64,000 nucleotides of DNA from Bacteroidales bacterium (lineage in GTDB: Bacteria; Bacteroidota; Bacteroidia; Bacteroidales; WCHB1-69), in contig JAKSMI010000002.1 of NCBI GenBank assembly GCA_024400635.1, positions 120,305 to 184,304 on the forward strand. The letters are read 5' to 3'. The position numbers and the translations under genes were made by a program. The notes beneath the pieces are model-generated. The model had not been told where the DNA came from and did no database searches. It saw only the letters and a list, made by a program, of their open reading frames with translations. Positions 43,679 through 62,000 of the stretch are shown in pieces (the first letter of the stretch is position 1; each line of letters opens with the position of its first letter).

Positions 43679-43720
43679 GCAAAAAATTCTAGCAGTTGCG
43701 CCCGACACGTATTAGGGAAA
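43647..43720 (+). repeat. Conserved leader element, copy B (overlaps the channel gene 3' end, upstream of the 73-aa ORF)
   Basis: Same blocks as copy A: a 27-nt identical core GCCGAAAAGCGTTCAATAGAGTAGGCA, then AGTTGcGCCCGACACGTAtTAGGGA. Confidence 0.8.
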
Positions 43721-48102: not shown

Positions 48103-49653
48103 ATGACTAAAGAACAAGAACGTGCGGAACTGCACCGTGCTATATGGCAAATTGCTAACGACCTGCGTGGCAGCGTGGACGGCTGGGATTTCAAGGCATA
48201 CGTCTTGGGTATGCTGTTCTACCGATTCATTTCTGAAAACCTTACCGAATACATTAACAAGGGCGAGCACGAAGCAGGCAATCCCGACTTCAACTATGCC
48301 GAGCTTGATGACGCACAAGCGGAGTATGGTCGTGAGGATACCGTCAAGGAGAAAGGTTTCTACATTCTGCCGAGCGAGTTGTTCGTGAATGTCCGCAAGC
48401 AAGCCAAGAATGATGAGAACCTTAACGAGACTTTGGCAAAGGTTTTTGATAACATTGAGAAATCTGCTATCGGTACGGAATCCGAAGATGACCTGCGTGG
48501 TTTGTTCGATGACATTGATGTCAATTCCAACAAACTGGGTGCCACGGTTGCCAAACGGAATGAGAAGTTGGTGAAGATTTTGGATGCCATTGGCGATTTG
48601 AAGTTGGGTCGTGTTGAGGACAACACCAACGATTTGTTCGGCGATGCCTACGAATACCTTATGACGATGTATGCCAGCAGTGCAGGTAAGAGCGGTGGCG
48701 AGTTTTACACACCGCAGGAGGTTTCGGAGCTGTTGGCGAAGATTACCTTGGTCGGAAGGAAAGAAGTGAACAAGGTTTATGACCCTGCCTGCGGTAGCGG
48801 TTCCCTGTTGTTGAAGTTTGCCAAGGTGTTGGGTAAGGAAAAGGTGCGTCAAGGATTCTATGGTCAAGAGATAAACATTAGCACCTACAATCTGTGCCGA
48901 ATCAATATGTTCCTGCACAATATCAACTATGAGAAGTTTGACATTGCCCACGGCGATACCTTGCTGGAGCCGAAGCATTGGGATGATGAACCCTTTGACT
49001 GCATTGTTTCCAACCCGCCTTATAGCATTAAGTGGGCTGGCGATGACAATCCGTTGCTGATTAACGATGAGCGATTCTTACCCGCAGGGGTGTTGGCTCC
49101 AAAAAGCAAAGCGGACTTGGCTTTCACGATGCATATGCTGGCGTGGTTATCTACAAGCGGAACGGCTGCAATCGTTGAGTTCCCTGGCGTGTTGTATCGT
49201 GGCGGTGCGGAACAAAAAATCAGAAAGTATCTCATTGACAACAACTATGTGGACACCGTGTTCCAGCTGCCACCTGATTTGTTTTTCGGTACAAGCATTG
49301 CCACCTGCATTATCGTTTTGAAGAAGTCTAAAAAAGACAACAGCATTCTGTTCGTGGATGGCAGTGCTGAGTTTGTTCACGAAGGAAATAAGAACAAACT
49401 TTCGCAGGCGAACATTGACAAACTGCTGAACGCATTTAAGGAGCGCAAGGACGTTGACCATTTCTGCAAGTTGGTATCTTGCGAAGATGTGGTGGCCAAC
49501 GACTGCAACCTTTCCGTCAGCAGTTATGTGGAGCAAGAGGACACACGAGAGGAAATCAATATAGTGGAGTTGAACCGCAGCATTGCTGAAATCGTTGCCC
49601 GCCAACAAGTGCTGCGGACGGAAATTGACAAGATAGTTGCGGATTTGGAATAA
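48103..49653 (+). CDS. hsdM: Type I restriction-modification system methyltransferase subunit
   Basis: SAM motif DPACGSGSLL, catalytic motif NPPYSIKW, and an HsdM N-terminal domain. Confidence 0.92.
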   Translation: MTKEQERAELHRAIWQIANDLRGSVDGWDFKAYVLGMLFYRFISENLTEYINKGEHEAGNPDFNYAELDDAQAEYGREDTVKEKGFYILPSELFVNVRKQAKNDENLNETLAKVFDNIEKSAIGTESEDDLRGLFDDIDVNSNKLGATVAKRNEKLVKILDAIGDLKLGRVEDNTNDLFGDAYEYLMTMYASSAGKSGGEFYTPQEVSELLAKITLVGRKEVNKVYDPACGSGSLLLKFAKVLGKEKVRQGFYGQEINISTYNLCRINMFLHNINYEKFDIAHGDTLLEPKHWDDEPFDCIVSNPPYSIKWAGDDNPLLINDERFLPAGVLAPKSKADLAFTMHMLAWLSTSGTAAIVEFPGVLYRGGAEQKIRKYLIDNNYVDTVFQLPPDLFFGTSIATCIIVLKKSKKDNSILFVDGSAEFVHEGNKNKLSQANIDKLLNAFKERKDVDHFCKLVSCEDVVANDCNLSVSSYVEQEDTREEINIVELNRSIAEIVARQQVLRTEIDKIVADLE

Positions 49654-49654
49654 T

Positions 49655-49682
49655 GTAGAATTTAGAATTTAGAATGTAGAAT
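49655..49682 (+). repeat. Heptamer array (GTAGAAT TTAGAAT TTAGAAT GTAGAAT) directly after the hsdM stop
   Basis: Four tandem 7-nt units start 2 nt after the stop codon. Confidence 0.85.
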
Positions 49683-49712
49683 GTTTTACTACAACAGAAG
49701 GAGGGCTGACGT

Positions 49713-50588
49713 ATGAGCAAGATTTCGTTTAGGTTTTATAAAGACCGTGAGGTAAGAGCCGTGTGGGATGACACTACCAGTAAGTGGTTCTTTTCTGTTC
49801 TTGATGTGCTTGGTGCTATCAATGAGCAGGATGACCATACCAAGACAAGGAACTACTGGAAATATCTCAAAAACAAATTGAAGAAGGAAGGTTCTGAGCT
49901 GGTTAGTATCACTACCCAACTGAAGTTAAAGGCTGCTGATGGCAAAAGATACAACACTGATGTGCTGGATGCTTATGGTATTGAAGAATTAGCCAAGAAT
50001 ATTCCCAATAGTAAGGCGATGGAGTTTCTTGACTGGCTTACCTATAGCGACAACACTATCGACGGGAAAAGCAAGAAGAAGGCATACGAGTTGTGGGGAA
50101 GTGGAATGCTGGCGACTCTTGAAGTCGGCACAACCAAAGCACTTCAGCAGATACACGCGTACATCTTTGGCGGCTTGTATGACTTTGCCGGCCAGATTCG
50201 AACAAAGACTATCTCCAAGGGTGGCTTTACCTTCTGTTTGGCTCAATACCTGCCACAACAATTGGACATTATTGAAAAGATGCCCGAAGCAAGCATAGAT
50301 GACATCTTCAACAAATATGTAGAGATGAATGTTGCTCACCCCTTCATGGAGGGTAATGGCAGAAGCACCCGGATATGGCTCGACCTCATGCTGAAAGCAA
50401 GAGTTGCTAAATGTATTGACTGGAGTCAGATAAACAAGAATGACTATCTGCAAGCAATGACACAGAGTGTTGCAGATGCCACTTTCGTCAAGCAGTTGCT
50501 CACTAATGCTCTCACCGACAACATCAACAGCCGCGAGCTCTTTATGAAGGGCATCGATTATTCATATTATTATGAACAGGAGGACTAA
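49713..50588 (+). CDS. Fic/DOC-family protein with an N-terminal Bro-N-like DNA-binding domain
   Basis: Fic motif HPFMEGNGRSTRIW. The N-terminal REVRAVWDDTTSKWFFSVLDVLGAI resembles Bro-N domains. Confidence 0.8.
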   Translation: MSKISFRFYKDREVRAVWDDTTSKWFFSVLDVLGAINEQDDHTKTRNYWKYLKNKLKKEGSELVSITTQLKLKAADGKRYNTDVLDAYGIEELAKNIPNSKAMEFLDWLTYSDNTIDGKSKKKAYELWGSGMLATLEVGTTKALQQIHAYIFGGLYDFAGQIRTKTISKGGFTFCLAQYLPQQLDIIEKMPEASIDDIFNKYVEMNVAHPFMEGNGRSTRIWLDLMLKARVAKCIDWSQINKNDYLQAMTQSVADATFVKQLLTNALTDNINSRELFMKGIDYSYYYEQED

Positions 50589-50590
50589 CA

Positions 50591-51730
50591 ATGAAAAAGA
50601 TTGATAAACCGACGAACGAAGTGAGCGCAGTGCGTACATTGCGATATGTTTGCACGCCTGATTTGGTGAACGATGTCAAGCAGATTATCGGCGAAGCACA
50701 ACGCTTTGCCTACAATGCCGTGAACGTCGCCTTGGTGCAACGCAACTGGCTGTTAGGCAAGCGCATTGCCGAAGAAGAACTGAAAGGAGAAGACCGTGCC
50801 GAATATGGTGCTGCGGTGATTAAGAATCTTTCGACAGAACTGACAGCGGAATATGGCAAAGGGTTTTCGGAACGGAATTTATGGAAATACAAGCAATTTT
50901 ACTTGATGTTCAAGAACTTACCGATAGTGCCGACAGTGTCGGCACTATCGGATGCGCAAAAACTGCCGACAGTGTCGGCACAATTCCAGCAACTGAGCTG
51001 GAGCCACTACGAAAGACTTATGCGTGTCGCAAATGAAGAAGAACGTAATTGGTATTTAAAGGAAACTATCGAACAAATGTGGTCTTACCGAACGCTTGAC
51101 CGCAACATTTCCACACTTTACTACAGACGTTTGCTTTCCTCGTCAGATAAAACGCCGGTAACGGATGAGATGCGGAAGAAAACGGCAGACTTTCAGAACA
51201 ATAAATTTGATTTCATAAAGAATCCCTCCGTGCTCGAATTTTTGGGGCTGCCTGCTAATAAGGTATATACAGAAACAGCATTGGAGCAGGCTATTATTAA
51301 CCAAATGCAATCGTTCCTTCTTGAACTTGGCAAGGGGTTTTCTTTCGTGGCACGCCAACAACTTATACGTACCGACACCCAGAATTTCTTTATCGACTTA
51401 GTGTTTTACAATTATATTCTAAAATGTTTTGTAATTGTAGAACTGAAAAATCACGCACTGACCCACCAGGATATTGGGCAGTTGGATATGTATGTGCGGA
51501 TGTATGATGATTTAAAAAAACGTACCGACGACAATCCGACCATTGGAATTTTGCTATGTACCGAAACCGACAAAACCATTGCCAGATATTCGGTATTGAA
51601 TGAGAACAAACAACTTTTCGCTTCTAAGTACATTGACTATTTGCCAACGGAAAAAGAATTGGAGGAAGAGATAGAACGGCAAAGAATGTTGTTTGACCTA
51701 CAAGCACACCATTACGAACTGGAGGACTAA
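50591..51730 (+). CDS. YhcG-like PD-(D/E)XK nuclease (DUF1016 family), copy 1
   Basis: The C-terminal FIDLVFYNYILKCFVIVELK block (D...E-x-K) and the overall pattern are shared with copy 2. Confidence 0.75.
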   Translation: MKKIDKPTNEVSAVRTLRYVCTPDLVNDVKQIIGEAQRFAYNAVNVALVQRNWLLGKRIAEEELKGEDRAEYGAAVIKNLSTELTAEYGKGFSERNLWKYKQFYLMFKNLPIVPTVSALSDAQKLPTVSAQFQQLSWSHYERLMRVANEEERNWYLKETIEQMWSYRTLDRNISTLYYRRLLSSSDKTPVTDEMRKKTADFQNNKFDFIKNPSVLEFLGLPANKVYTETALEQAIINQMQSFLLELGKGFSFVARQQLIRTDTQNFFIDLVFYNYILKCFVIVELKNHALTHQDIGQLDMYVRMYDDLKKRTDDNPTIGILLCTETDKTIARYSVLNENKQLFASKYIDYLPTEKELEEEIERQRMLFDLQAHHYELED

Positions 51731-51732
51731 CA

Positions 51733-52821
51733 ATGAACAAGATTGATAAACCGACGAACGAAGCCAGAGTGACAGCCGTGTACGATAATGCCGCTGTGGG
51801 AATACATAGTTGCATTGAAGACATCAGACAGATAATAGACAGTGGGCGAAAGGCGGCATACCTTTCCGTCAATGCCGTAATGGTTCAAACCTATTGGAAC
51901 ATTGGCAGGCGTATCGTGGAAGAAGAACAGAATGGAAAAGAACGAGCGGACTATGGCGAATTTTTGATCACCACGCTTGCGGATAGTTTGACACACACAT
52001 TTGGAAATACGTTTAGTAAAAGAAATTTGCAGTATTTTAGAAAATTCTATCAGTTGTTTCCTGATTTTGAGATTGTGAACACGCGTGTTCACAATCTGAC
52101 ATGGTCGCATTATCGGCGACTACTCACAGTGCACGAGTCAGACGCCCGATATTGGTATCTGAACGAAGCCAACGAACAGATGTGGAGCGTACGCACTTTG
52201 GACAGGAATGTCTCGACACAATATTACCATCGTCTTATGCAGTCGCCCAAGAAAGAAAAGGTGATTGCAGAGATGCAGCAGAAGACAGCAGATTTTCAGA
52301 AAAACAAGTACGAACTCATCAAAAGTCCCGTCGTTGCCGAATTCCTTGGTTTCAGTTCTACCGATTACAGCGAAACGGATTTGGAAAAGGCCATCATCAC
52401 ACATCTTCGTGATTTCTTGATGGAACTGGGACGCGGTTTTGCATTCGTGGCGCGACAACAGCATATCGTTACCGAAACCGATGATTATTTTATCGACCTC
52501 GTGTTCTACAATATCGAACTGAAATGCTACGTCCTGATTGATTTGAAAATCGGGAAAATCACGCACCAAGACGTCGGACAGATGGATATGTATGTGCGTA
52601 TGTATGATGATCTTAAACGGAAAAACGACGACAATCCCACAATCGGCATCGTGCTGTGCTCAGAAACAGATAAGGATATTGCAAGATATTCTATTCTTCA
52701 CGATTCAAATCAGATTTTTATGGCTAAATATATGCCATATCTGCCCTCCGAAGACGAACTCCGTGCCGAAATAGAAACGCAGAAACAAATGTTTTACCTG
52801 CAACAAAAAGAAAGACAATAA
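51733..52821 (+). CDS. YhcG-like PD-(D/E)XK nuclease (DUF1016 family), copy 2
   Basis: FIDLVFYNIELKCYVLIDLK, with long conserved blocks shared with copy 1 (for example QDxGQxDMYVRMYDDLK..DDNPTIGI.LC.ETDK.IARYS.L). Confidence 0.75.
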   Translation: MNKIDKPTNEARVTAVYDNAAVGIHSCIEDIRQIIDSGRKAAYLSVNAVMVQTYWNIGRRIVEEEQNGKERADYGEFLITTLADSLTHTFGNTFSKRNLQYFRKFYQLFPDFEIVNTRVHNLTWSHYRRLLTVHESDARYWYLNEANEQMWSVRTLDRNVSTQYYHRLMQSPKKEKVIAEMQQKTADFQKNKYELIKSPVVAEFLGFSSTDYSETDLEKAIITHLRDFLMELGRGFAFVARQQHIVTETDDYFIDLVFYNIELKCYVLIDLKIGKITHQDVGQMDMYVRMYDDLKRKNDDNPTIGIVLCSETDKDIARYSILHDSNQIFMAKYMPYLPSEDELRAEIETQKQMFYLQQKERQ

Positions 52822-52852
52822 TATAATGTAGAACTTTTACAATAACTTGATT

Positions 52853-53325
52853 ATGGATAAGCTAAAAATCACTCGGTATAAAGAATCATTTGATGCGATT
52901 GCAAACTATATAGAAAACGAGCAGAAAGACCAAGTTGAAATCTGGTTTGCCCGCGAATTGCAAACTGTATTGGGATATGCCAGATGGGAAAATTTCGTTG
53001 TGGCGATAAATAGAGCCATCGAGTCGTGTAAAACAATGAATATCAATGTAGAAGACCATTTTCGTGAGGTCACGAAAATGGTCGCTTTAGGAAGCGGTTC
53101 GCAACGGGAAATTTCAGATTTCATGCTCACTCGTTTTGCCTGCTACCTGATTGCACAAAACGGAGACCCGAAAAAATGCTGGGTAAACGTGGAATAAAAC
53201 CCGAAGAACTGCCGCCAGCCGAAGACATAAAGAAAATGGAACGCAAGGCTGCAGGTGATGAGAAGAAAATTGAACAATCAACGAAAAAACTGCCTAAAAC
53301 AGATGCGAATGATGAGCAAGATTGA
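52853..53325 (+). pseudogene. dinD-like (DNA-damage-inducible protein D) gene with an internal deletion or frameshift
   Basis: The N-terminal 115 aa (WFARELQTVLGYARWENF...LTRFACYLIAQNGDPKK) match DinD. The frame then breaks at about 53185. A C-terminal-like segment (GKRGIKPEELPPAEDIKKMERK...) continues in another frame to about 53325, and the middle of the protein is missing. Confidence 0.6.
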
Positions 53326-53446
53326 TAAACCGATGAAACTGGGCGTGATTTTTATTTGACGGTTATTTGATATATGACAGAATGTAAATCTTAACAGGTT
53401 GATTTTCAATATATTTTTATTTGATGACTATTTGATGATTTAGGTT

Positions 53447-54640
53447 ATGAGCAAGATAGAAGAACTAATTAAGAAACATTGTCCAAACGGGGTGGAATAT
53501 ATTCCTATTGGGCAATTGATTTCAAGAGTAAGAGAAAAAGGCAAAAACAATCCTGATATTCAAACAGTGTATGCCATTAGCAACAAATTAGGTGTTGTTA
53601 AATCTTCAGATTATCACGATTTTGAAATACATAGCAGCGACACCTCTAATTATGTTGTATTACGAAAAGGTAATTTCGCATATAATCCTGCACGTTTAAA
53701 TATTGGTTCTATAGCATATTTGCAAACTAACGAAGCAGGATTAGTAAGTCCTATGTATGTTGTATTTCAAATCAATGAAAAACTGATTACGCAAGAATAT
53801 TTGTTTTTGGTAATAAAATCTCAAAGAGTAATATCATTAATAAATGGACTTACAGAAGAAGGAGCAAGGTTCCGTTTTGATTTTGAACGTTGGAATAAAA
53901 TTTCCATCCCCCTCCCGCCGCTCCCCGTGCAGGAGGAAATCGTGCGGATATTGGACAAGTTCACTACGCTGGAAGCAGAGCTGCAAGCAGAGCTGGAAGC
54001 ACGGCGGAAACAGTATGAGTACTATCGGGATAAGCTGCTGAATGTAGATTGTAGAATGCAGAATGTAGAATGGAAGAAGTTGGGAAACATTGGTAAGGTC
54101 TGCATGTGTAAGAGGATATTGAAGCAGCAAACCTCAGCAGAAGGCGATATCCCATTTTTCAAAATAGGAACTTTTGGAGGAGAAGCGGATGCATATATTT
54201 CACGAGAGTTATTTGAATTATACAAATCGAAGTATTCATATCCTAAAAAAGGAGATGTGCTTATATCTGCTGCTGGGACAATTGGAAGAACTATTGTTTT
54301 TGATGGAGAACCAGCGTATTTCCAAGATAGTAATATTGTTTGGTTAAAACATGATGAGACAGTTGTATTAAACTCGTATTTAAGATATTGCTACTCAATG
54401 AATCCTTGGGCGGTTTCTACAGGTGGCACTATCGCTAGATTATATAATGATAATATACTTAATGCTGTTATCCCGGTTCCGCCCCTTCCCGAGCAGGAGC
54501 GCATCGTTTCAATCCTCGACCGCTTCGACACTCTCGTGAACGACATCTCCCAAGGCCTGCCCGCCGAGATAGAGGCACGCAAGAAGCAGTACGAATATTA
54601 TAGGGATAAATTGTTGACGTTTAGAGAATGTAGAATGTAG
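53447..54640 (+). CDS. hsdS: Type I restriction-modification system specificity subunit (two TRDs)
   Basis: There are two target-recognition regions. Each is followed by a conserved region: LPPLPVQEEIVRILDKFTTLEAELQAELEARRKQYEYYRDKLL, and PPLPEQERIVSILDRFDTLVNDISQGLPAEIEARKKQYEYYRDKLLTF. Confidence 0.9.
   Translation: MSKIEELIKKHCPNGVEYIPIGQLISRVREKGKNNPDIQTVYAISNKLGVVKSSDYHDFEIHSSDTSNYVVLRKGNFAYNPARLNIGSIAYLQTNEAGLVSPMYVVFQINEKLITQEYLFLVIKSQRVISLINGLTEEGARFRFDFERWNKISIPLPPLPVQEEIVRILDKFTTLEAELQAELEARRKQYEYYRDKLLNVDCRMQNVEWKKLGNIGKVCMCKRILKQQTSAEGDIPFFKIGTFGGEADAYISRELFELYKSKYSYPKKGDVLISAAGTIGRTIVFDGEPAYFQDSNIVWLKHDETVVLNSYLRYCYSMNPWAVSTGGTIARLYNDNILNAVIPVPPLPEQERIVSILDRFDTLVNDISQGLPAEIEARKKQYEYYRDKLLTFRECRM
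54037..54071 (+). repeat. Heptamer array inside hsdS, directly after the central conserved region
   Basis: GCTGAAT GTAGATT GTAGAAT GCAGAAT GTAGAAT is translated as NVDCRMQNVEW. The GCAGAAT unit supplies CAG at the position where the terminal array supplies the TAG stop. Confidence 0.85.
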
Positions 54641-54678
54641 AATGTAGAATGTAGAATGCAGAATTTAGAATGTAGAAT
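54623..54678 (+). repeat. Heptamer array (8 units) spanning the hsdS stop codon and ending 1 nt before the four-helix-bundle gene ATG
   Basis: AGAGAAT, then GTAGAAT x4, then GCAGAAT TTAGAAT GTAGAAT. The hsdS stop TAG (54638-54640) lies inside the array. Confidence 0.9.
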
Positions 54679-54679
54679 T

Positions 54680-55054
54680 ATGAAGGAGAATATTTTATTG
54701 AATAAAAGTAAGTTGTTGGCGTTAAGGATTATTCGTTTATATCAATATTTGTGCGAGGAGAAGAAGGAGTTTGTTTTGTCGAAGCAAGTGCTTCGTAGCG
54801 GTACAAGTATCGGTGCGAATGTGAGGGAAGCCAATCGTTCCCAATCTAAAAAAGAGTTTATCGCCAAACTGAATATTTCACTAAAAGAAACTGACGAAAC
54901 AATGTATTGGCTTGAATTACTTCACGAAAGCAATTATATCGAAACCGAACCTTATAACAGTATCTATGCCGATACAGAAGAAATACTCAAACTATTAGTA
55001 TCTATTATAAAATCAACAAAGAAGAACGTAAAGAATGCAGAATGCAGAAGGTAG
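54680..55054 (+). CDS. Four-helix-bundle protein (23S rRNA intervening-sequence protein / Avd-like family), copy 1
   Basis: 124 aa with the LRSGTSIGANVREA motif typical of the family. I start at the ATG at 54680. Confidence 0.8.
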   Translation: MKENILLNKSKLLALRIIRLYQYLCEEKKEFVLSKQVLRSGTSIGANVREANRSQSKKEFIAKLNISLKETDETMYWLELLHESNYIETEPYNSIYADTEEILKLLVSIIKSTKKNVKNAECRR

Positions 55055-55106
55055 AATGTAGAATGGATAACCCACCCAATTCTACATTCATAATTCTACA
55101 TTCTAC
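55030..55106. repeat. Forward heptamer array and inverted heptamer array forming a hairpin at the 3' end of cassette 1
   Basis: The forward units are AAAGAAT GCAGAAT GCAGAAG GTAGAAT GTAGAAT (55030-55064). The loop is ATAACCCACCC. The inverted units are ATTCTAC ATTCATA ATTCTAC ATTCTAC (55079-55106). Confidence 0.85.
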
Positions 55107-55174
55107 ATTAATTAAAATGAAGCAGTACGAATATTACCGAAACAAATTGTTGACATTCAAAGAAAAACAGCATA

Positions 55175-56845
55175 ATGACAGAACAAGAAATCAAAGCTTA
55201 TATCAAACAGAATTTCCCATACGAGAACGAATCTTGTGATTGGAAAAACTACGCCAATTTGAAAAATACGTTGTGCGGACACGAAGGAGACGATGTGGTA
55301 TCGTATGTGTCGGCATTATCCAACGTAAACGGTGGCGCATTGGTGATTGGCGTTGAAGATAAGACCCTGGATATTATAGGTATTCAAGATTTTGCCAACT
55401 ATACTCCCGAATCTGCCAAATATCGCATAGTAGAAAAATGCCGAAATCTTAATTCGGAGAATCTTGAAATTTTACCATTGTTTGCCGAAGATTCGCATAA
55501 AACAGTTTGGATTGTAAATGTACCAAAACACTCTCCAAGATTGCCTGTTTATGCCCACAACAAAGCGTGGCAGCGCATTGGCGATTCACTCGTTGAAATG
55601 ACACAAGAAAGGCGTGAGGCTATTCTTTCTGAAATCGTTGTAGAAGAAGATTGGAGTTCTGCCATTATAGAAGATGCTACTATCGATGACTTGGATAGCG
55701 ATGCCATAGAAAAAGCAAAAAAGGAATTTGCGAAACGTAATCCTCACAAAGTGGATGAAATGCAGATTTGGGATGATATTACGTTTCTCAATAAAGCCAA
55801 ACTAACCATACGTGGGAAAATAACCCGCACTGCTTTGATGCTTTTAGGTAAAGAAGAATCAGAATTTCTATTAAATCCATTTGTCGCTAAAATCAGATGG
55901 TCGCTTCGTAGTTTGGGTTCAAATGAAAATAAGGATTACGATGTCTTTTCTATGCCATTACTGCTTAGCGTTGACAAACTGTACAACAAAATTCGCAATG
56001 TCAAATATCGTCTTGTTCGTCCTGATTCTCTCTTCCCTGATGAAATGCTCAGGTATGATATGTTCAACATTCGCGAACCCTTGAATAATGCCATTGCGCA
56101 CCAAGATTACACAAAACGAGCCCGCATTGAAGTGGTTGAATTTGAAGACGACCACCTTGTGTTTCAAAACGCTGGAACATTCCTGCCTAAAAGCGTTGAA
56201 GATGTGATAAATAAAGATTGTCCCGAATCTATTTATAGAAACACATTTCTTGTTGAAGCAATGCGAAACCTGAATATGGTAGAAACCGAAGGCGGCGGAA
56301 TAAAGAAAATGTTCCAAAAACAGAAAATCCGTTTTTTCCCTATGCCAGAATATGACCTTAGCAACAATCTTGTCAAAGTTGAAATTATAGGCAAAGTGGT
56401 AGATGAGGAATTTGCCAAACTTTTGACAAAGAATCCACAACTTTCATTATCAGATATTCTCTTGCTTGACAAAGTTCAAAAACGAAAAGTTTTGAATGAT
56501 GGCGAAATTGCATATTTAAGAAAAAAAGGATTTATCGAAGGTAGGAAACCAAATTTCTTTTTGTCGGAGAATGTTGTAAAACCAATTGACAATAAAAAAC
56601 TGAAGGCCGATTATATTAAAAACCGCAATTTCGATGATTCGCATTATAAGGATATGATTCTTAATTACATTAAGAAATACAAAAAAGCGAGTAAATCAGA
56701 TATAAGCAATCTAATTATAGACAAATTATCTCCTGTGCTTTCGGATAAGCAAAAACAGAGCAAAGTTTCCAATTTGCTTTCTTCTTTAAGAATAGATGGT
56801 AAAATAGAATGCGTTAATCGCTTTTGGGTAATAAAGAAAAATTAA
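55175..56845 (+). CDS. AlbA_2/Schlafen-like DNA-binding domain protein with a GHKL-type ATPase-like region and C-terminal wHTH, copy 2
   Basis: 556 aa and a paralogue of 44172-45860, with the same conserved blocks. Confidence 0.65.
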   Translation: MTEQEIKAYIKQNFPYENESCDWKNYANLKNTLCGHEGDDVVSYVSALSNVNGGALVIGVEDKTLDIIGIQDFANYTPESAKYRIVEKCRNLNSENLEILPLFAEDSHKTVWIVNVPKHSPRLPVYAHNKAWQRIGDSLVEMTQERREAILSEIVVEEDWSSAIIEDATIDDLDSDAIEKAKKEFAKRNPHKVDEMQIWDDITFLNKAKLTIRGKITRTALMLLGKEESEFLLNPFVAKIRWSLRSLGSNENKDYDVFSMPLLLSVDKLYNKIRNVKYRLVRPDSLFPDEMLRYDMFNIREPLNNAIAHQDYTKRARIEVVEFEDDHLVFQNAGTFLPKSVEDVINKDCPESIYRNTFLVEAMRNLNMVETEGGGIKKMFQKQKIRFFPMPEYDLSNNLVKVEIIGKVVDEEFAKLLTKNPQLSLSDILLLDKVQKRKVLNDGEIAYLRKKGFIEGRKPNFFLSENVVKPIDNKKLKADYIKNRNFDDSHYKDMILNYIKKYKKASKSDISNLIIDKLSPVLSDKQKQSKVSNLLSSLRIDGKIECVNRFWVIKKN

Positions 56846-57092
56846 ACGAGTTATTCGGTTATGTGCGATCGGTTGCATTCTATCTATATAACTGTCAATG
56901 ATATGGACAACTAAAATTTAAACGATTTAATTGATTTTGCACTTGATAAAACAATATAAATATTTGATAACCAACGTCATAACTTGTCGAAATTTAAACG
57001 ATTTAAACAAGAACAATGACTAATAATAAAGTGCCGAGATTGAATCCCGCAGAAAACAATACGAATATTACCGCGATAAATTATTGACGTTT

Positions 57093-57155
57093 AGAGAATG
57101 CAGAAGGCAGAATGTAGAATGCAGAATGTAGAATTTAGAATGCAGAATGTAGAAT
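57093..57155 (+). repeat. Heptamer array (9 units) upstream of four-helix-bundle gene copy 2
   Basis: AGAGAAT GCAGAAG GCAGAAT GTAGAAT GCAGAAT GTAGAAT TTAGAAT GCAGAAT GTAGAAT, followed by T and then ATG. Confidence 0.9.
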
Positions 57156-57156
57156 T

Positions 57157-57531
57157 ATGAAGGAAAATGTTTTATTGAATAAAAGTAAGTTGTTGGCTTT
57201 AAGGATTATTCGTTTATATCAATATTTGTGCGAGGAGAAGAAGGAGTTTGTTTTGTCGAAGCAAGTGCTTCGTAGCGGTACAAGTATCGGTGCGAATGTG
57301 AGGGAAGCCAATCGTTCCCAATCTAAAAAAGAGTTTATCGCCAAACTGAATATTTCACTAAAAGAAACTGACGAAACAATGTATTGGCTTGAATTACTTC
57401 ACGAAAGCAATTATATCGAAACCGAACCTTATAACAGTATCTATGCCGATACAGAAGAAATACTCAAACTATTAGTATCTATTATAAAATCAACAAAGAA
57501 GAACGTAAAGAATGCAGAATGCAGAAGGTAG
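57157..57531 (+). CDS. Four-helix-bundle protein (23S rRNA intervening-sequence protein / Avd-like family), copy 2
   Basis: It differs from copy 1 at a single residue (I5V). Confidence 0.8.
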   Translation: MKENVLLNKSKLLALRIIRLYQYLCEEKKEFVLSKQVLRSGTSIGANVREANRSQSKKEFIAKLNISLKETDETMYWLELLHESNYIETEPYNSIYADTEEILKLLVSIIKSTKKNVKNAECRR

Positions 57532-57583
57532 AATGTAGAATGGATAACCCACCCAATTCTACATTCATAATTCTACATTCTAA
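57507..57583. repeat. Forward and inverted heptamer arrays at the 3' end of cassette 2
   Basis: Same arrangement as 55030-55106. The inverted units lie at 57556-57583. Confidence 0.85.
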
Positions 57584-57657
57584 ATTAATTAAAATGAAGC
57601 AATACGAATATTACCGCGATAAATTATTGACATTCAAAAGAAAGGAAGCATAGTCAA

Positions 57658-57745
57658 ATTTGAATCATCGAAAAAATGTTGGTTTTTATGATTTGAATCA
57701 TCGAAAAAATGTTTATTTTTGCAATTTGAATCATCGAAAAAGTGT
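57658..57745 (+). repeat. Three tandem 33-bp repeats (core ATTTGAATCATCGAAAAA) upstream of the DUF4143-type ATPase gene
   Basis: The cores start at 57658, 57691 and 57724. A TAttTTTG box (57714-57721) lies within the second unit. Confidence 0.85.
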
Positions 57746-57771
57746 ATTCTGCAAAAAAATATGTAAACGTC

Positions 57772-59079
57772 ATGTACAGGAAAATCATTGAGAGACTGAA
57801 AGAATGGAAGACCAGTGACGACAGAAAACCGCTTGTTCTTCTCGGAGCGAGGCAGGTTGGAAAGACTTGGCTTATGAAAGAGTTCGGACAGACATGTTAC
57901 GACTCTATGGCATACTTGAATTGCGACAACGAGCCGTTGGCGAAAGATTTGTTCAACGCCGACTACAACATTCCGCGGATTCTGCTTGCCATCCAAGCCA
58001 TAACCGGCGTGAAGGTTGAACCCGGCAGAACACTCATTGTTATCGACGAGATACAAGAAGTTCAGCGCGGCCTGCACAGCCTCAAGTATTTCTGCGAAAA
58101 CGCCCCTGAATATCACGTGGTTGCAGCAGGCTCGCTGCTTGGCGTGACACTCGGACAAAAAGAGTCTTTTCCCGTGGGAAAGGTGAACATGCTTCAGGTA
58201 CAGCCCATGGATTTTGAAGAGTTCATGATAGCGACCGGACATCAAAACCTGCTCGACAGCATGCGCCAAGGCGACTGGTCCTTGCTCGACATGCTTGATG
58301 CAAAATATCAGGAACTGTTGAGGCAGTATTATTTTGTCGGCGGCATGCCCGAAGCAGTAAAGCAGTATGTGCTGCATCAGGATTTGAAACAGGTGAGGAC
58401 CATTCAGAGCGAGATAATGGAATCATACAGAAAGGACATCGCCAAACATGCCACCAAAGCAGAAGCCGTCCGCATCACGCAAGTGCTCGACACCATTGTC
58501 TCCCAGCTGACAAAGGAAAACAAGAAATTCATATATGGGGTAATCAAGAAAGGGGCGAGGGCCGCGCAGTATGAATTAGCCATACAGTGGCTCATTGACG
58601 CGGGTATAGTGTACAAGGTGCCGCGGGTCTCTGCAATCAAAATGCCCCTGAAAGCATACGAGGATGCAGGAGCGTTCAAGCTGTTCCTTCTCGACTGCGG
58701 ACTCTTTGGCCTGCTAGCCGATGCCCCCGCCAATCTGGTGCTGACAAGCAACAACATCTTCAAGGAATATAAAGGGGCTTTCACAGAGCAATATGTCTTC
58801 CAGCAGTTGTCGGCTTTGAATATACATCCTCATTATTGGAGTAATGACGGCACTCCGGCGGAAATAGACTTTGTGATTCAGGCAGAAGGGAGACCCATCC
58901 CCATTGAAGTGAAAGCTGAAGAAAATGTGCGTGCAAAAAGTATGTCGGAATATATCAAAAACCATCCTGATGATCAGTTGAAAGGATTACGTATCTCAAT
59001 GCGAGAATATGTCAATCAGGATTGGATGGAGAACATACCTCTGTATGCCATCGCGAAATATATGTCGAATGTCAAGTGA
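57772..59079 (+). CDS. AAA-family ATPase (AAA_14 + DUF4143-type)
   Basis: Walker A GARQVGKTWL and Walker B LIVIDEIQ. I start at the ATG at 57772 (MYRKIIERL). Confidence 0.75.
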   Translation: MYRKIIERLKEWKTSDDRKPLVLLGARQVGKTWLMKEFGQTCYDSMAYLNCDNEPLAKDLFNADYNIPRILLAIQAITGVKVEPGRTLIVIDEIQEVQRGLHSLKYFCENAPEYHVVAAGSLLGVTLGQKESFPVGKVNMLQVQPMDFEEFMIATGHQNLLDSMRQGDWSLLDMLDAKYQELLRQYYFVGGMPEAVKQYVLHQDLKQVRTIQSEIMESYRKDIAKHATKAEAVRITQVLDTIVSQLTKENKKFIYGVIKKGARAAQYELAIQWLIDAGIVYKVPRVSAIKMPLKAYEDAGAFKLFLLDCGLFGLLADAPANLVLTSNNIFKEYKGAFTEQYVFQQLSALNIHPHYWSNDGTPAEIDFVIQAEGRPIPIEVKAEENVRAKSMSEYIKNHPDDQLKGLRISMREYVNQDWMENIPLYAIAKYMSNVK

Positions 59080-59089
59080 AATCAGCATT

Positions 59090-62000
59090 ATGACCCAATA
59101 TAACATCATCGCCGAAACCCCCGAATGCACGGTGGTCAGCGACTACCAAGCTCCCTACAATTCCCGTTCCACCGCATACCAAAGTGAAGCGGCATTGGAA
59201 ATGGCGTTCATTGAGGAACTGCAAAAGCAGGCATACGACTACCTGCCAATCAAATCGGAGCAGGAGTTGATTTTTAACCTGCGAAACCAGTTGGAAATCC
59301 TCAATGATTATCTGTTCACGCCAACCGAATGGGAACGGTTCTACACCACCATTATCGCCAAGGCCGATAGCGGCATTGTGGAAAAGACAACCCTCATTCA
59401 AGAGGACTGCGTGCAGGTATTGAAAAGGGATGACGGCAGTTTCAAGAACATAAAACTGATAGACAAAGACCATATCCACAACAACCGTCTGCAAGTAATC
59501 AATCAGTATGTTCCGCAAGGCGGTAAGGCCGAAAACCGTTATGACGTGAGCGTGTTGGTCAATGGTCTGCCGTTGGTTCACATAGAACTGAAACGCAGGG
59601 GCGTGGACATTAAGGAAGCGTTCAACCAAATCAACCGTTATCAACGAGAAAGTTTTTGGAGTGGGTGCGGTCTGTTCGAGTTTGTGCAGATATTCGTAAT
59701 CAGCAACGGAACCTACACCAAGTACTATTCCAACACAACCCGTTTCGCCCATATCAAGGAGCAGGCGGGTAAACCGAATCACAAGGGCAAACGCACCAGC
59801 AATTCATTTGAGTTCACTTCGTGGTGGGCAGACGCAAACAACACGCCGATAACCGACTTGATGGACTTTGCCAGGACTTTCTTTGCCAAGCACACCATAC
59901 TGAACATACTGACCAAATACTGCGTGTTCACGGAGGAAAGATTATTATTGGCGATGCGTCCCTATCAAATCGTGGCCACGGAAAGAATCATAAGCAAAAT
60001 CAACATTGCCACCCAATACAAGAAGTTTGCCCCTGCCGAAAGTGGTGGATACATTTGGCATACCACAGGCAGCGGCAAGACTTTAACCAGTTTCAAGACC
60101 GCACAAATCGCAAGCAAACTGCCGTACATTGACAAGGTGCTGTTCGTGGTAGATAGGAAGGATTTGGACTACCAGACAATGAAGGAGTATGACCGCTTTG
60201 AAAAGGGAGCGGCCAATGGCAATACTAGTACGGCGATTCTCAAGAAACAGTTGGAGAATGCTGAATGCAAGATAATCATTACGACCATACAGAAGTTGTC
60301 AATCTTCACTAAGAAGAATACGGGACACGAGGTGTTCAAGAAGCATTTGGTATTGATATTTGACGAATGCCACCGTTCCCAATTTGGCGATATGCACCGC
60401 CTCATTACCAAGCATTTCAAGCAGTGCCATTTGTTCGGATTTACGGGAACACCTATTTTTGCAGTCAACTCCAGCTCCAATGCCGCCGCCGACCTCAAGA
60501 CCACGGCACAGGCATTCGGGGAGAAACTACACACCTACACCATTGTAGATGCCATCAACGACAAGAACGTGCTGCCGTTCCGTGTAGATTACATTAAGAC
60601 AATCAAGGAAGAAGAACATATCATTGACAAGAAAGTCAGCGACATAGATAGAGAAAAGGCACTATTGTCGAAAGAACGAATCAGCAATGTGGTTTCGTAC
60701 ATTTTGGAACATTTCAATCAGAAAACCAAGCGCAACGAATACTACCAACTGAAGGAACGCCGATTGCGCGGATTCAACTCCATATTCTGCGTGCAAAGCA
60801 TTGAGGCCGCAAAACTCTACTACACGGAGTTCAAGAAGCAGATGGCATTGCTTCCACCTGACCAGCAGTTGAAAGTCGCAACCATTTACAGTTATGCCGC
60901 CAACGAAGCCGATGACGAAAACGGCTTTATGGGGGATGAGAACAACGAGGACACCGAGAGTTTGGATATGGTCAGCAAGGACTTTTTGCAGCAGGCGGTT
61001 TACGACTACAACAAAATGTTCAGCACCAACTTTGACATATCTGCCGATAAGTTTCAAAACTACTACAAGAACTTGTCGCAAAGGGTAAAGAATCGTGAGG
61101 TTGATTTGCTGATAGTGGTCAATATGTTCCTCACGGGCTTTGACGCAACAACCCTCAATACTTTGTGGGTAGATAAGAACCTGCGATTGCACGGCTTGTT
61201 GCAAGCATATTCACGCACCAACCGAATCCTCAACTCCGTCAAGACCTTTGGCAATATTGTATGTTTCCGAAACCTTGAAGACGCAACCAACGAGAGCATA
61301 GGGCTGTTTGGCGACAAGGACGCAGGCGGCATTGTACTGCTGAAAACATACGAAGACTACTACGAAGGCTACACTGACAAGAAAGACAAGGAACACAAGG
61401 GATACAAGGTGCTGATAGAGGAATTGCAGGAAAGATTCCCCGTCGGCAAACTGATAGTCAGCGAACAGAATCAAAAGGATTTCGTCAGATTATACAATGC
61501 AATCTTGAAATTGAAAAACATACTGACCGCATTTGACAAGTTTGCGGGCAATGAGATTCTTTCCGACCGAGATTTCCAGGACTACCACAGCACCTACATT
61601 GACATATACAATGCCATTCGTCCGCAAGTTGGACAAAAGGAGAATATCAATGACGACCTTGTCTTTGAAATGGAACTTATCAAGCAGGTCGAAATCAACA
61701 TTGATTACATTCTAATGCTCATTAAGAAGTATCACGAAAGCCATTTGCAAGATAAGGAAATCGTAGTCAATATCAGCAAGGCAATCAGTTCAAGTATGGA
61801 ACTTCGATACAAGAAGCAGTTGATAGAACAGTTCATTGACAGTCTCACCCCAGCAAGCGATGTGGATAGTGATTGGCGGGCATACGTTCAGCGGCAGAAG
61901 GAGGACGAACTGAACGCCATTATCGCAGACGAAAAGTTGAAGGAAGAAGAAACCAAAGCGTTTATGGAAAATGCGTTCAAAGATGGAGAACTACAAACAA

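What the first reader, a model, noticed from the sequence alone, without database searches (positions are those of the whole stretch)
49655..57583. Heptamer (G/T)(T/C)AGAAT arrays mark nearly every gene junction in the R-M locus
Tandem 7-nt units occur at six places:
- right after the hsdM stop (49655-49682, 4 units);
- inside hsdS after its central conserved region (54037-54071);
- across the hsdS stop up to 1 nt before the next ATG (54623-54678, 8 units);
- across the stop of each four-helix-bundle gene (55030-55064 and 57507-57541);
- upstream of the second four-helix-bundle gene (57093-57155, 9 units).

Inverted copies (ATTCTAC) lie at 55079-55106 and 57556-57583. I did not notice the motif in the other 50 kb of the window.

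A perfect GTAGAAT array contains a TAG in every 21 nt, whichever frame is read, so it terminates translation in all frames. It also creates C-terminal tails such as ...ECRM and ...AECRR. The arrays therefore behave like universal cassette boundaries. They may be recombination substrates, slippage-prone phase-variation tracts, or binding or processing sites. I do not know of a description of this arrangement, but I cannot search the literature.
Basis: seen in the sequence. Interest (0 to 1): 0.65.

Follow-up and report, generated by a model that had tools for sequence, protein, structure and literature searches.

The report
Heptamer-repeat arms of IVS-like gene cassettes
The 7-base repeat arrays are real and mostly belong to two copies of a small selfish gene cassette, of the kind known from inside 23S ribosomal RNA genes, that here sits inside a restriction-modification operon flanked by inverted arrays of a lineage-specific 7-base unit.

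Summary
(G/T)(T/C)AGAAT dimers occur 21 times in the window, all within 49655-57583, against 0.01 expected.

The sites are not independent. Six of the eight arrays come from one ~600-bp unit present twice (96% identical). Each unit is a direct array, then a four-helix-bundle (PF05635, "23S rRNA intervening-sequence protein") ORF, then a direct array across the stop, then an inverted array.

In 80 metagenome loci encoding relatives of this protein, 75 have a period-7 array upstream and 74 have one downstream. The heptamer differs from locus to locus, with about 27 unit types. The downstream array is the reverse complement of the upstream one in 24 of 28 scored loci. Array length peaks sharply at about 32 nt. 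Four of these relatives lie inside true 23S rRNA genes and show the same architecture.

The arrays are therefore best read as the stem arms of an IVS-type cassette outside rRNA, plus solitary arrays of the same family that change length by slippage.

The "all-frame terminator" property is only compositional, and R-M specificity is not supported: (GTAGAAT)3 occurs in many phyla next to unrelated genes. Unit number and cassette content do vary among relatives.

The parts
48103..49653 (+). hsdM (type I R-M methylase), context gene. Its stop directly precedes the first array.
   Evidence: Pfam N6_Mtase 2e-116 and HsdM_N. In relative L204 the hsdM stop lies inside the array.
49652..49684 (+). Solitary direct array, 33 nt (GTAGAAT TTAGAAT TTAGAAT GTAGAAT), with no inverted partner.
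   Evidence: Among hsdM relatives the same junction has 0 units (L205, L210), about 3 degenerate units (L207), or about 10 units (L204).
52824..52836 (+). Single-unit relic (AATGTAGAAC + TTTTACAATAAC) after the second DUF1016 gene. It is conserved in L204.
53447..54640 (+). hsdS (specificity subunit). Its C-terminal tail RECRM* is read from the array.
   Evidence: Pfam Methylase_S 1e-39, two stretches.
54037..54072 (+). In-frame intragenic array (NVDCRMQNVEW). It consists of the native linker NVEW plus a 21-nt (3-unit) expansion, with the in-frame TAG removed (GCAGAAT).
   Evidence: The same 33-nt in-frame tract (NVDCRMKNVEW) is present in L204 hsdS, which has different TRDs. Other HsdS of this family have ..VEWKxLGE at this point.
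54620..54679 (+). Cassette A, upstream direct array (8 units). It forms the 5' arm of the inverted repeat and abuts the ATG.
   Evidence: Inverted repeat I3: 54648-54679 / 55078-55109, 32 nt, 91% complementary.
54680..55054 (+). Cassette A ORF: four-helix-bundle protein (PF05635 / TIGR02436), 124 aa.
   Evidence: Pfam 3.7e-29; TIGR02436 1.9e-32; PDB 2RLD 1.9e-53 with the family profile.
55030..55065 (+). Cassette A, direct array across the ORF stop (34 nt). It supplies the tail NAECRR*.
   Evidence: P0001/L201 has the tail NAEGRM in place of NAECRR; in DNA this is a TGC-to-GGC substitution in the second unit plus additional GTAGAAT units.
55078..55109 (+). Cassette A, inverted array (ATTCTAC units). 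It forms the 3' arm.
   Evidence: The RNA fold pairs it with the upstream array and encloses the ORF.
55119..55164 (+). Second copy of the hsdS 3' conserved segment (MKQYEYYRNKLLTFKEK..), directly after cassette A.
   Evidence: family D3.
57053..57098 (+). Third copy of the hsdS 3' segment (..RRKQYEYYRDKLLTF), directly before cassette B.
57093..57156 (+). Cassette B, upstream direct array (9 units). It differs from cassette A by one 7-nt indel.
57157..57531 (+). Cassette B ORF: second four-helix-bundle gene.
   Evidence: HMM hit 1.3e-63. It belongs to the same 90% cluster as copy A.
57507..57542 (+). Cassette B, direct array across the stop.
57555..57586 (+). Cassette B, inverted array (3' arm).
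   Evidence: Inverted repeat I9: 57125-57156 / 57555-57586, 32 nt, 84% complementary.
57596..57641 (+). Fourth copy of the hsdS 3' segment. Together with 57057-57088 it forms a perfect 32-nt direct repeat around cassette B.
59009..62131 (+). hsdR, the end of the operon (context).
   Evidence: Pfam HSDR_N, SWI2_SNF2, EcoR124_C.

Best explanation
**What it is.** The arrays are the repeat arms of an IVS-type selfish cassette. [quoted passage not shown] A purine-rich tandem heptamer array of about 32 nt or more abuts its ATG. A pyrimidine-rich inverted array of the same heptamer lies just past its stop.

**In this window.** Two nearly identical copies sit downstream of hsdS and account for six of the eight arrays. 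The other two arrays, after hsdM and inside hsdS, are solitary arrays of the same heptamer family. They sit on native heptamer-like sequence (the hsdM 3' end and DUF1016 5' end; the hsdS NVEW linker). They change length by replication slippage.

**Shown.** The anatomy, the generality of the architecture, its presence in true 23S rRNA IVSs, the unit-number variation, and the co-divergence of heptamer and protein.

**Inferred mechanism.** In the operon transcript the two arms pair into a stem of about 30 bp that loops out the inserted ORF. As in rRNA IVSs, the stem is probably cut by RNase III. This would make the insertion tolerable inside an operon. The purine-rich 5' arm may also serve as the leader for translating the ORF.

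**Side effects.** Slippage of the 7-nt unit changes the C-terminal tails of hsdM, hsdS and the bundle protein. I saw no case where it switches a gene on or off.
For: **In the window**
- 32-nt arms that are 91% and 84% complementary enclose each ORF exactly.
- The MFE and centroid RNA folds pair the upstream array with the downstream inverted array.

**Generality**
- Of 80 metagenome loci with relatives 52-69% identical, 75 have a period-7 array upstream, 74 downstream and 71 both.
- Array density is 2.89/kb within 200 nt of the ORF and 0.058/kb elsewhere in the same loci. Other periods are nearly absent: period 8 occurs at 0.07/kb and the rest at zero.
- There are about 27 different heptamer units. 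Flanking arrays are inverted in 24 loci and direct in 4.
- Loci where the strict detector failed still show heptamer-based inverted arms.
- Pairs of proteins >=70% identical share the heptamer in 77-95% of cases, against 7-8% below 60% identity.
- Array length peaks at 30-34 nt (110 of 236 arrays).
- Polarity: the upstream array is purine-rich in 56 of 65 loci and the downstream array pyrimidine-rich in 54 of 63.
- An independent sample from viral contigs gives the same picture for relatives >=50% identical.

**Link to true IVSs**
- In L162, L163, L170 and L195 the homolog lies inside LSU rRNA.
- L162 carries (GAAAATT)5 before the ATG and an inverted (AATTATC)4 after the stop. Its fold has z = -7.4.
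- The L124 cassette, in an R-M operon, folds the same way.

**Literature.** The Coxiella IVS has a 28-bp terminal stem cut by RNase III. It also has 2-3 tandem GACAGAT heptamers before the S23p ATG, with copy number varying between strains (PMC4990558).

**Mobility and slippage**
- A 96%-identical ORF with the same heptamer lies next to yebC in L201.
- There is a 7-nt indel between copies A and B.
- Upstream arrays have 8, 9, about 4.5 and 5 units in relatives.
- The hsdM-end array has 0, about 3, 4 or about 10 units.
Against: - No RNA data: pairing and RNase III cleavage in an mRNA are predictions only.
- The whole-cassette fold has only z = -2.2 in the window.
- A local hairpin (55051-55064 with the inverted array) competes with the long-range stem.
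- Arm complementarity could be maintained by template-switch repair of quasi-palindromes rather than by selection.
- Solitary direct arrays at other junctions (window; L124) are not explained by a local stem, yet they show the same ~32-nt length.
- (GTAGAAT)3 arrays are common in many phyla without any PF05635 gene nearby: only 4 of 120 loci have one.
- Relatives at 41-44% identity lack heptamer arrays.
- The hsdS 3'-segment duplications around the cassettes are not explained by this model.
Confidence: 0.6

Rival explanations
1. The arrays are ordinary intergenic heptanucleotide microsatellites (long simple sequence repeats). They arise by polymerase slippage wherever sequence is unconstrained, and they have no function and no special link to the neighbouring genes.
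For: - (GTAGAAT)3 occurs in more than 120 loci from Cyanobacteria, Bacteroidota, CPR, Firmicutes, Proteobacteria and even an archaeon.
- 146 of 163 of those arrays are intergenic.
- Flanking ORFs fall in 291 Pfam families with no dominant one.
- Heptanucleotide repeats are reported as the most abundant long SSR class in prokaryotes. TAACTGA arrays show a similar scattered distribution (PMC4679880).
- The hsdM-end array sits on native heptamer-like sequence, and its length varies from 0 to about 10 units among relatives.
Against: - Arrays are about 50-fold enriched next to PF05635 ORFs, and only period 7 is enriched.
- The inverted arrangement holds in 24 of 28 loci despite about 27 different units.
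- The sharp 32-nt length mode is not what neutral slippage predicts.
- Strand polarity is strong.
- The heptamer co-diverges with the protein.
- All eight arrays cluster in 8 kb of a 64-kb window.
Confidence: 0.12
2. The arrays are recombination sites that define exchangeable gene cassettes, comparable to integron attC sites or portable homology. Genes are inserted, deleted or swapped by recombination between arrays, perhaps with help from the tyrosine recombinase next to hsdM.
For: - Arrays sit at junctions of accessory genes in the window and at every junction in L124.
- Gene content between hsdM and hsdS differs among close relatives: none in L210/211, AlbA_2 in L205, DUF1016 in L207, and Fic plus two DUF1016 genes in the window.
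- Direct arrays on both sides of the ORF could delete it. ORF-less array hairpins exist (L103 3110-3290; L147 8745-8834).
- A Phage_integrase gene lies at 46366-47628.
- 61% of distant arrays share the heptamer of the locus's cassette, against 15% in the cross-locus control.
Against: - Insertions occur at the same junction without arrays (L205/206).
- The Fic, DUF1016 and AlbA_2 junctions in the window lack arrays.
- The breakpoint relative to L204 lies about 15 nt past the array.
- Cassette flanks are inverted rather than direct in 24 of 28 loci. This is not what Campbell-type integration leaves behind.
- Other sequences mark the junctions instead: duplicated hsdS 3' and 5' ends.
- No flanking target duplication is seen in 80 other loci.
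- Relatives L205 and L208 have no integrase beside hsdM.
Confidence: 0.12
3. The arrays are phase-variation tracts. Gain or loss of a 7-nt unit shifts the frame and switches hsdS (for example to a half-length specificity subunit) or neighbouring genes on and off.
For: - The unit length is not a multiple of three.
- Unit number differs between copies and between relatives.
- One array lies inside hsdS just after the central conserved region, where truncation would leave a half-HsdS.
- C-terminal tails of hsdM, hsdS and the bundle protein change with unit number.
Against: - The intragenic array has the same 33-nt length and frame in L204 despite different TRDs, and the in-frame TAG has been removed by substitution.
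- All other arrays lie at or after stop codons, where slippage alters only a few terminal residues.
- No half-length HsdS ending in array-encoded residues was found among 120 short HsdS fragments.
Confidence: 0.05

Closest known systems
23S rRNA intervening sequences (IVS) carrying an S23p / PF05635 ORF (Leptospira, Coxiella burnetii; PMC4990558)
   Same: - The ORF belongs to the same protein family. The same subfamily is found inside LSU rRNA in L162, L163, L170 and L195.
- Terminal inverted repeats form a stem of about 28-32 bp around the ORF.
- Tandem heptamers lie directly before the ATG, with copy number varying between strains.
   Different: - Here the element lies between protein-coding genes of a type I R-M operon, not in an rRNA helix.
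- The stem arms are built entirely of heptamer arrays.
- RNase III excision is untested.
- The element is present twice, and each copy is bracketed by hsdS 3'-end fragments.
Intergenic heptamer direct repeats such as TAACTGA in Beggiatoaceae, Cyanobacteria and Bacteroidetes (MacGregor 2015, PMC4679880), and heptanucleotide long SSRs (Mrazek 2007, as cited there)
   Same: - Tandem 7-nt units, mostly intergenic and often immediately upstream of start codons.
- A scattered cross-phylum distribution.
- Indels in 7-nt steps between strains.
   Different: - That work reports no associated protein gene, no inverted pairing and no length mode.
- Here the arrays come as inverted pairs around one gene family, and the unit differs between lineages.
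REP/REPIN sequences and their RAYT transposases
   Same: - A small gene is flanked by inverted copies of a repeat.
- The same repeat is dispersed at other intergenic sites nearby.
- The repeat family co-diverges with the protein.
   Different: - The protein is a four-helix bundle with no transposase or nuclease domain.
- The repeat is a tandem heptamer array, not a palindromic REP.
- Mobilisation has not been shown.
DGR accessory protein Avd
   Same: The fold family is the same. There is a weak NCBIfam hit to DivGenRetAVD (E 5e-4, below its cut-off), and PF05635 is described as Avd-like (PMC10053308).
   Different: - No reverse transcriptase and no template/variable repeat pair lie near the cassette.
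- The protein does not reach the Avd family cut-off.

Membership tests
IVS element with S23p/PF05635 ORF | ORF of the PF05635 / TIGR02436 four-helix-bundle family | tested here: met
   Pfam 3.7e-29, 101.5 bits against a cut-off of 33.8. TIGR02436 111.7 bits against a cut-off of 24.
IVS element with S23p/PF05635 ORF | Complementary termini that form a stem enclosing the ORF | tested here: met
   32-nt arms that are 91% (copy A) and 84% (copy B) complementary. They are paired in the MFE and centroid folds.
IVS element with S23p/PF05635 ORF | Tandem heptamers directly upstream of the ORF start, with copy number varying between strains (as described for Coxiella) | tested here: met
   8 and 9 units end 1 nt before the ATG. 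Close relatives have about 4.5 and 5 units.
IVS element with S23p/PF05635 ORF | Inserted in a helix of an rRNA gene | tested here: not met
   There is no rRNA match in the window. The cassettes lie between hsdS and hsdR.
IVS element with S23p/PF05635 ORF | Excised from the transcript by RNase III at the stem | not testable with these tools
   Requires RNA end mapping or an rnc mutant.
Phase-variable simple-sequence contingency locus | A repeat tract placed so that unit changes switch a gene on or off (in the 5' coding region or the promoter) | tested here: not met
   Seven arrays lie at or after stop codons or before the bundle ORF. The intragenic tract is conserved in length and frame in L204.
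Phase-variable simple-sequence contingency locus | Unit number differs between strains or copies | tested here: met
Integron-type gene cassette array | Each cassette ends in an imperfect-palindrome attC site, next to an IntI integrase with attI | tested here: not met
   The Fic, DUF1016 and AlbA_2 junctions have no array or palindrome. The arrays are tandem repeats. A tyrosine recombinase is adjacent, but relatives lack it. Whether it is of the IntI type was not tested.
hsdS shufflon (invertible type I specificity genes) | Inverted copies of hsdS conserved segments that allow inversion by a nearby recombinase | tested here: not met
   All five copies of the hsdS conserved segment are on the + strand.
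REP/RAYT system | A Y1 (IS200/IS605-like) transposase gene flanked by inverted REPs | tested here: not met
   The flanked gene is PF05635, not a transposase. Only the flanking geometry is shared.
Generic heptanucleotide long SSR | Tandem 7-nt units, intergenic, with a sporadic phylogenetic distribution | tested here: met

The most novel reading that the evidence does not exclude
The heptamer arrays are cognate binding sites of the pentameric four-helix-bundle protein. One ~32-nt module carries five cores spaced 7 nt apart, one per subunit. This would resemble TRAP on its triplet repeats, or a RAYT with its REPs.

Each protein lineage would then have its own heptamer. Copies of the module at other junctions of the same operon would be bound in the RNA or single-stranded DNA. 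The protein would thereby control the processing, translation or spread of the modules.

This reading would account for four observations:
- the 7-nt period;
- the sharp 32-nt length mode even in solitary arrays;
- the co-divergence of heptamer and protein;
- the sharing of one heptamer family within a locus (61% against 15%).

It is also consistent with the pentameric crystal forms: 2RLD has five chains, and XCC0516 is a homopentamer as cited in PMC4990558.
Probability: 0.2. Interest if true: 0.85.

Novelty: new variant of a known kind. Interest (0 to 1): 0.66.

Why it matters
PF05635 proteins are very numerous: 7,997 of the 8,000 candidates scored for this one subfamily matched. They turn up in rRNA genes, R-M operons and cas loci, yet their function is unknown. 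The nature of bacterial IVS elements has been open since about 1990.

The same cassette architecture occurs both in 23S rRNA and inside ordinary operons. It consists of the ORF between inverted ~32-nt arrays of a lineage-specific heptamer, with fixed polarity. This gives the element a defined anatomy and suggests that it is one mobile entity tolerated by looping itself out of the transcript.

It also yields direct experiments: RNase III mapping on operon mRNAs, and binding of the pentamer to five-unit arrays.

For annotation, it explains three things:
- the odd C-terminal tails (..ECRM, ..AECRR) on hsdM, hsdS and the bundle protein;
- assembly breaks at these loci;
- the apparent "punctuation" of defence operons in Bacteroidales.

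Tried and rejected
- **All-frame terminator as a selected property.** Rejected. 51 of 71 upstream heptamers contain a stop, against 71% expected from shuffled letters.
- **R-M specificity of GTAGAAT arrays.** Rejected.
- **Target-site duplication as a general feature of the cassette.** Only the window shows flanking direct repeats, 32 nt and 18 nt. None was found in 80 other loci.
- **Known RNA family.** There is no Rfam hit in the arrays.
- **Sigma-70 promoters and intrinsic terminators.** Both are at chance level.
- **Close relatives of the cassette among pattern-found loci.** tblastn found only 2 of 120, and an HMM found 4 of 120.
- **Exact look-up of the window's bundle protein.** It returned only its own assembly, without DNA.
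- **Search for half-length HsdS ending in the central array.** None was found. The short HsdS fragments end in unrelated tails.
- **ORFs enclosed by +/- GTAGAAT array pairs in cyanobacterial loci (L008, L036).** These turned out to be other heptamer arrays or ordinary genes, not cassettes.
- **RNAduplex comparison of own against cross-locus flanks.** It supports pairing (median -62 against -44 kcal/mol, p = 5e-11). The absolute energies are inflated by long looped duplexes, so I give it little weight.
- **Literature.** Searches for the heptamer, PF05635/TIGR02436, four-helix-bundle proteins, and IVS plus heptameric found only the Coxiella note.


Full report
**1. Observation**

The region 49400-58000 was read directly. 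Tandem Repeats Finder reports eight period-7 arrays:

| Coordinates | Type |
|---|---|
| 49652-49684 | direct |
| 54040-54072 | direct |
| 54625-54678 | direct |
| 55032-55065 | direct |
| 55079-55109 | inverted |
| 57095-57155 | direct |
| 57509-57542 | direct |
| 57556-57586 | inverted |

The two-unit pattern KYAGAATKYAGAAT occurs 21 times, all between 49655 and 57583, against 0.01 expected from shuffles.

The sites are not independent. 54560-55180 and 57030-57660 align at 96% identity, and the only indel is one 7-nt unit in the upstream array.

**2. Gene content**

Pfam and NCBIfam give the following order:

| Coordinates | Gene |
|---|---|
| 46366-47628 (minus) | tyrosine recombinase |
| 48103-49653 | hsdM |
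| 49713-50588 | Bro-N/Fic adenylyltransferase |
| 50591-51730, 51733-52821 | two YhcG/DUF1016 nucleases |
| 52847-53197 | truncated DinD/Bro-N gene |
| 53447-54640 | hsdS |
| 54680-55054 | four-helix-bundle ORF (PF05635, "23S rRNA intervening sequence protein"; TIGR02436) |
| 55175-56845 | SLFN/AlbA_2 gene |
| 57157-57531 | second four-helix-bundle ORF |
| 57742-59079 | AAA_14/DUF4143 ATPase |
| 59009-62131 | hsdR |

The window comes from a Bacteroidales MAG, GCA_024500545.1.

**3. Anatomy of the repeated unit**

Each copy has this order:
- a fragment of the hsdS 3' conserved segment (..KQYEYYRDKLLTF);
- a direct array of 8 or 9 units ending 1 nt before the ATG;
- the 124-aa ORF;
- a ~34-nt direct array across its TAG;
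- an 11-nt spacer;
- a 31-nt inverted array;
- another hsdS 3' fragment.

The repeat finder reports arms 54648-54679 / 55078-55109 (32 nt, 91% complementary, 398 nt apart). For copy B it reports 57125-57156 / 57555-57586 (84%). The arms therefore enclose the ORF exactly. Folding 54600-55125 as RNA pairs the upstream array with the downstream inverted array in both the MFE and the centroid structure.

**4. Is GTAGAAT special to R-M loci? No.**

The loci come from Cyanobacteria (Moorena, Symploca), many Bacteroidota, CPR lineages, Firmicutes, Proteobacteria, Chloroflexi and one archaeon.
- 146 of 163 arrays have fewer than 80 open codons upstream, so they are intergenic.
- The 133 flanking ORFs hit 291 Pfam families. 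The most frequent are Response_reg (5), AAA_14 (4), PF05635 (3) and DUF4143 (3).
- Only 4 of the 120 loci hold a PF05635-like gene.

This fits what is known. Heptanucleotide units are the most abundant long SSR class in prokaryotes, and TAACTGA arrays have a similarly scattered distribution (PMC4679880).

**5. The converse is very strong**

I fetched 80 metagenome loci that encode relatives of the window's bundle protein at 52-69% identity.

- **Enrichment.** With a strict detector, period-7 arrays occur at 2.89/kb within 200 nt of the ORF and at 0.058/kb elsewhere in the same loci. Periods 5, 6, 9, 10 and 11 are absent near the ORF, and period 8 occurs at 0.07/kb.
- **Coverage.** With TRF at a lower threshold, 75 of 80 loci have an array upstream, 74 downstream and 71 both. 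Loci missed by the strict detector still show heptamer-built inverted arms on inspection.
- **Unit diversity.** The unit differs from locus to locus, with about 27 types, for example ACAAATC, GGAATTC, GCGGAAT, GACAATT, GAAAATT, AAGGTAA and TTAAACA.
- **Inverted pairing.** In 24 of 28 loci scored, the downstream array is the reverse complement of the upstream one. Four are direct. This amounts to covariation at the level of whole arrays.
- **Co-divergence.** Protein pairs >=70% identical share the unit (distance <=1) in 77-95% of cases, against 7-8% below 60% identity.
- **Length.** Array length has a sharp mode at 30-34 nt (110 of 236 arrays; mode 32 nt, about 4.6 units). Six of the window's eight arrays are 31-34 nt.
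- **Polarity.** The cassette is polar. The upstream array is purine-rich on the sense strand in 56 of 65 loci, and the downstream array is pyrimidine-rich in 54 of 63.
- **Replicate.** Viral contigs give the same result for relatives >=50% identical. More distant relatives (41-44%) lack heptamer arrays.

**6. Link to classical intervening sequences**

- In four of the 80 loci (L162, L163, L170, L195) the homolog lies inside a bacterial LSU rRNA gene (Rfam RF02541). These are true 23S rRNA IVSs.
- L162 has (GAAAATT)5 before the ATG and an inverted (AATTATC)4 after the stop, inside an outer GC-rich stem. It folds into a terminal stem enclosing the ORF with z = -7.4.
- For the Coxiella burnetii IVS, the literature describes a 28-bp terminal stem cut by RNase III, an S23p (PF05635) ORF in the loop, and 2-3 tandem GACAGAT heptamers directly before the ATG. 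Copy number differs between strains (PMC4990558).
- PF05635 genes have also been noted inside cas loci (PMC3936711) and in CPR rRNA insertions. L045 shows direct array | cas1 | bundle ORF | inverted array | cas2.

The window's cassettes therefore meet every sequence-level feature of an IVS except location in rRNA.

**7. Where the cassettes sit**

- Of 88 ORFs adjacent to the 80 bundle genes, 76 are co-directional.
- About 20 are R-M related: N6_N4_Mtase 9, Methylase_S 6, N6_Mtase 2, Eco57I 2, DUF4391 2. The rest are ordinary operons, including arabinose and rhamnose genes.
- An hsdS C-terminus lies directly upstream of the cassette in L121, L126 and L172 as well.
- L124 repeats the window's gene order (hsdM|DUF1016|DUF1016|hsdS|bundle ORF|hsdR). 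It has ACAATGA/ACAATGT arrays of about 32 nt at every junction, and only the last is inverted.
- Arrays far from the bundle ORF share its heptamer family in 61% of cases, against 15% for cross-locus controls. Solitary arrays also cluster at 30-34 nt.

**8. Variation among relatives**

*hsdM junction.* hsdM proteins >=90% identical to the window's gave seven comparison loci.

| Locus | State of the junction after hsdM |
|---|---|
| L210/L211 | hsdM, 4 nt, then the same hsdS TRD1 as the window; no array, no inserted genes |
| L205/L206 | hsdM then AlbA_2; no array |
| L207 | about three degenerate units, then DUF1016 |
| L204 | about ten units, and the hsdM stop lies inside the array (..DLEFRI*) |
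| window | four units |

The native hsdM end (GATTTAGAAAGATAG) and the DUF1016 start (ATGATGAATGA) already resemble the unit. The solitary array may therefore have grown by slippage from proto-repeats, although the direction of change cannot be proved.

*L204 compared with the window.* L204 lacks Fic and most of DUF1016, and the breakpoint lies about 15 nt after the array. It keeps the in-frame hsdS tract (NVDCRMKNVEW). It has only about 4.5 units between hsdS and the bundle ORF.

*L201.* L201 carries a 96%-identical ORF with (TTAGAAT)4 GTAGAAT before its ATG, next to a divergent yebC gene. Its C-terminal tail is NAEGRM instead of NAECRR. In DNA this reflects a substitution in the second unit (TGC to GGC), and the contig shows at least four GTAGAAT units after it, against two in the window.

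*hsdS linker.* Other HsdS proteins of this family have ..VEWKxLGE at the same point. The intragenic tract is therefore the native NVEW plus a 21-nt in-frame expansion, with the in-frame TAG removed.

**9. What the arrays are not**

- **Selected all-frame terminators.** The stop content of other cassettes' heptamers equals the compositional expectation.
- **Necessary cassette boundaries.** Insertions occur without them.
- **A shufflon.** All hsdS conserved segments are on one strand.
- **Known RNA families, promoters or terminators.** There is no match above chance.

**10. Mechanism**

*Shown:* the anatomy, generality, polarity, length mode and co-divergence, the presence of the architecture in true IVSs, and slippage-type variation.

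*Inferred:* in the transcript the arms pair and loop out the ORF. The stem of about 30 bp is a plausible RNase III substrate, as in rRNA IVSs. The purine-rich 5' arm may also serve as the translation leader.

*Unexplained:*
- why the period is 7;
- why solitary arrays keep the 32-nt length;
- why every gene inserted after hsdS is bracketed by an hsdS 3' fragment, including a perfect 32-nt direct repeat around copy B;
- why genes inserted before hsdS begin with the hsdS-like ATGAGCAAGAT.

The most novel reading is that the pentameric protein (2RLD has five chains) binds five-core arrays of its own heptamer. The data do not exclude this, and I have not tested it.

**11. Novelty and score**

Full-text searches found only the Coxiella note of heptamers in one IVS. 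I did not find the general architecture, or its occurrence in operons as well as rRNA, described in that library.

I rate this a new variant of a known kind, with interest 0.66.

Noticed in passing
window 54011, 54587, 55123, 57057, 57600 (all + strand): There are five copies of the hsdS conserved segment (Q-Y-E-Y-Y-R..). The three outside hsdS bracket the bundle cassettes and the AlbA_2 gene, and copy B is flanked by a perfect 32-nt direct repeat. The pattern looks like repeated insertion or recombination at the hsdS 3' end.
   Followed up: partly
window 49713, 50591, 51733, 53312, 53447: Fic, both DUF1016 genes, a DUF1016 5' remnant and hsdS all begin with nearly the same 11-26 nt (ATGAGCAAGAT.., MSKI/MKKI). 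The 5' end of hsdS may therefore also be a recurrent junction for inserted genes.
   Followed up: partly
window 46366-47628 (-) and 44172-45860 (-): A tyrosine recombinase (Phage_integrase) and a second SLFN/AlbA_2 paralog lie immediately upstream of hsdM. Relatives L205 and L208 have an acetyltransferase there instead.
   Followed up: partly
window 53968-54001: A 12-nt tandem repeat (GCTGGAAGCAGA x2.8) encodes LEAE/LQAE tetrapeptide repeats in the hsdS central coiled coil. L204 has LEKE x3 at the same place. From my own knowledge, such repeats set the spacer length of the recognition sequence in EcoR124-type enzymes.
   Followed up: no
window 44094-44148: A perfect 11-nt tandem repeat (AAAGTTCTCTT x5) lies just beyond the 3' end of the minus-strand AlbA_2 gene.
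   Followed up: no
window 57657-57745: A 33-nt tandem repeat (ATTTGAATCATCGAAAAAATGTT.. x2.7) lies directly upstream of the AAA_14/DUF4143 ATPase gene. It is possibly a regulatory region.
   Followed up: no
window 27815-27934: A 54-nt tandem repeat, 2.2 copies, 78% matches.
   Followed up: no
window 43646-43681 and 31742-31815: Rfam hits: the DUF805b cis-regulatory RNA motif (37.4 bits, just above its gathering score) and one tRNA.
   Followed up: no
window 52847-53197: The DinD/Bro-N gene is truncated to 116 aa here, but it is a full 291-aa ORF in relative L204 (7513-8388).
   Followed up: partly
L204 8577-8815: Three copies of a GC-rich palindrome (GTAGAGACGGGGCATGCCCCGTCTCTAC) are inserted at the hsdS 5' end, flanked by a duplicated hsdS start (acaacaattATGagcaagataga). 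The insert looks like a REP/MITE-type element with a long target duplication.
   Followed up: no
L103 3110-3290; L147 8745-8834: These are ORF-less hairpins made of a direct array followed closely by an inverted array of the same heptamer. They are the counterpart of ORF-less IVSs.
   Followed up: partly
L162 about 130-700: The same 23S rRNA fragment carries a second, upstream IVS at the helix-45 region. Its ORF is a much more distant PF05635-like sequence (HMM E 6e-4).
   Followed up: no
P0174-P0187: Many short HsdS fragments end ..LLSFDNVGGARSRVEENRGNL*. They look like +1 frameshifts of ..DNVGGQEVEWK.. at a GGAGGAG run just after the central conserved region. This could be a separate truncation hotspot in hsdS.
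   Followed up: no
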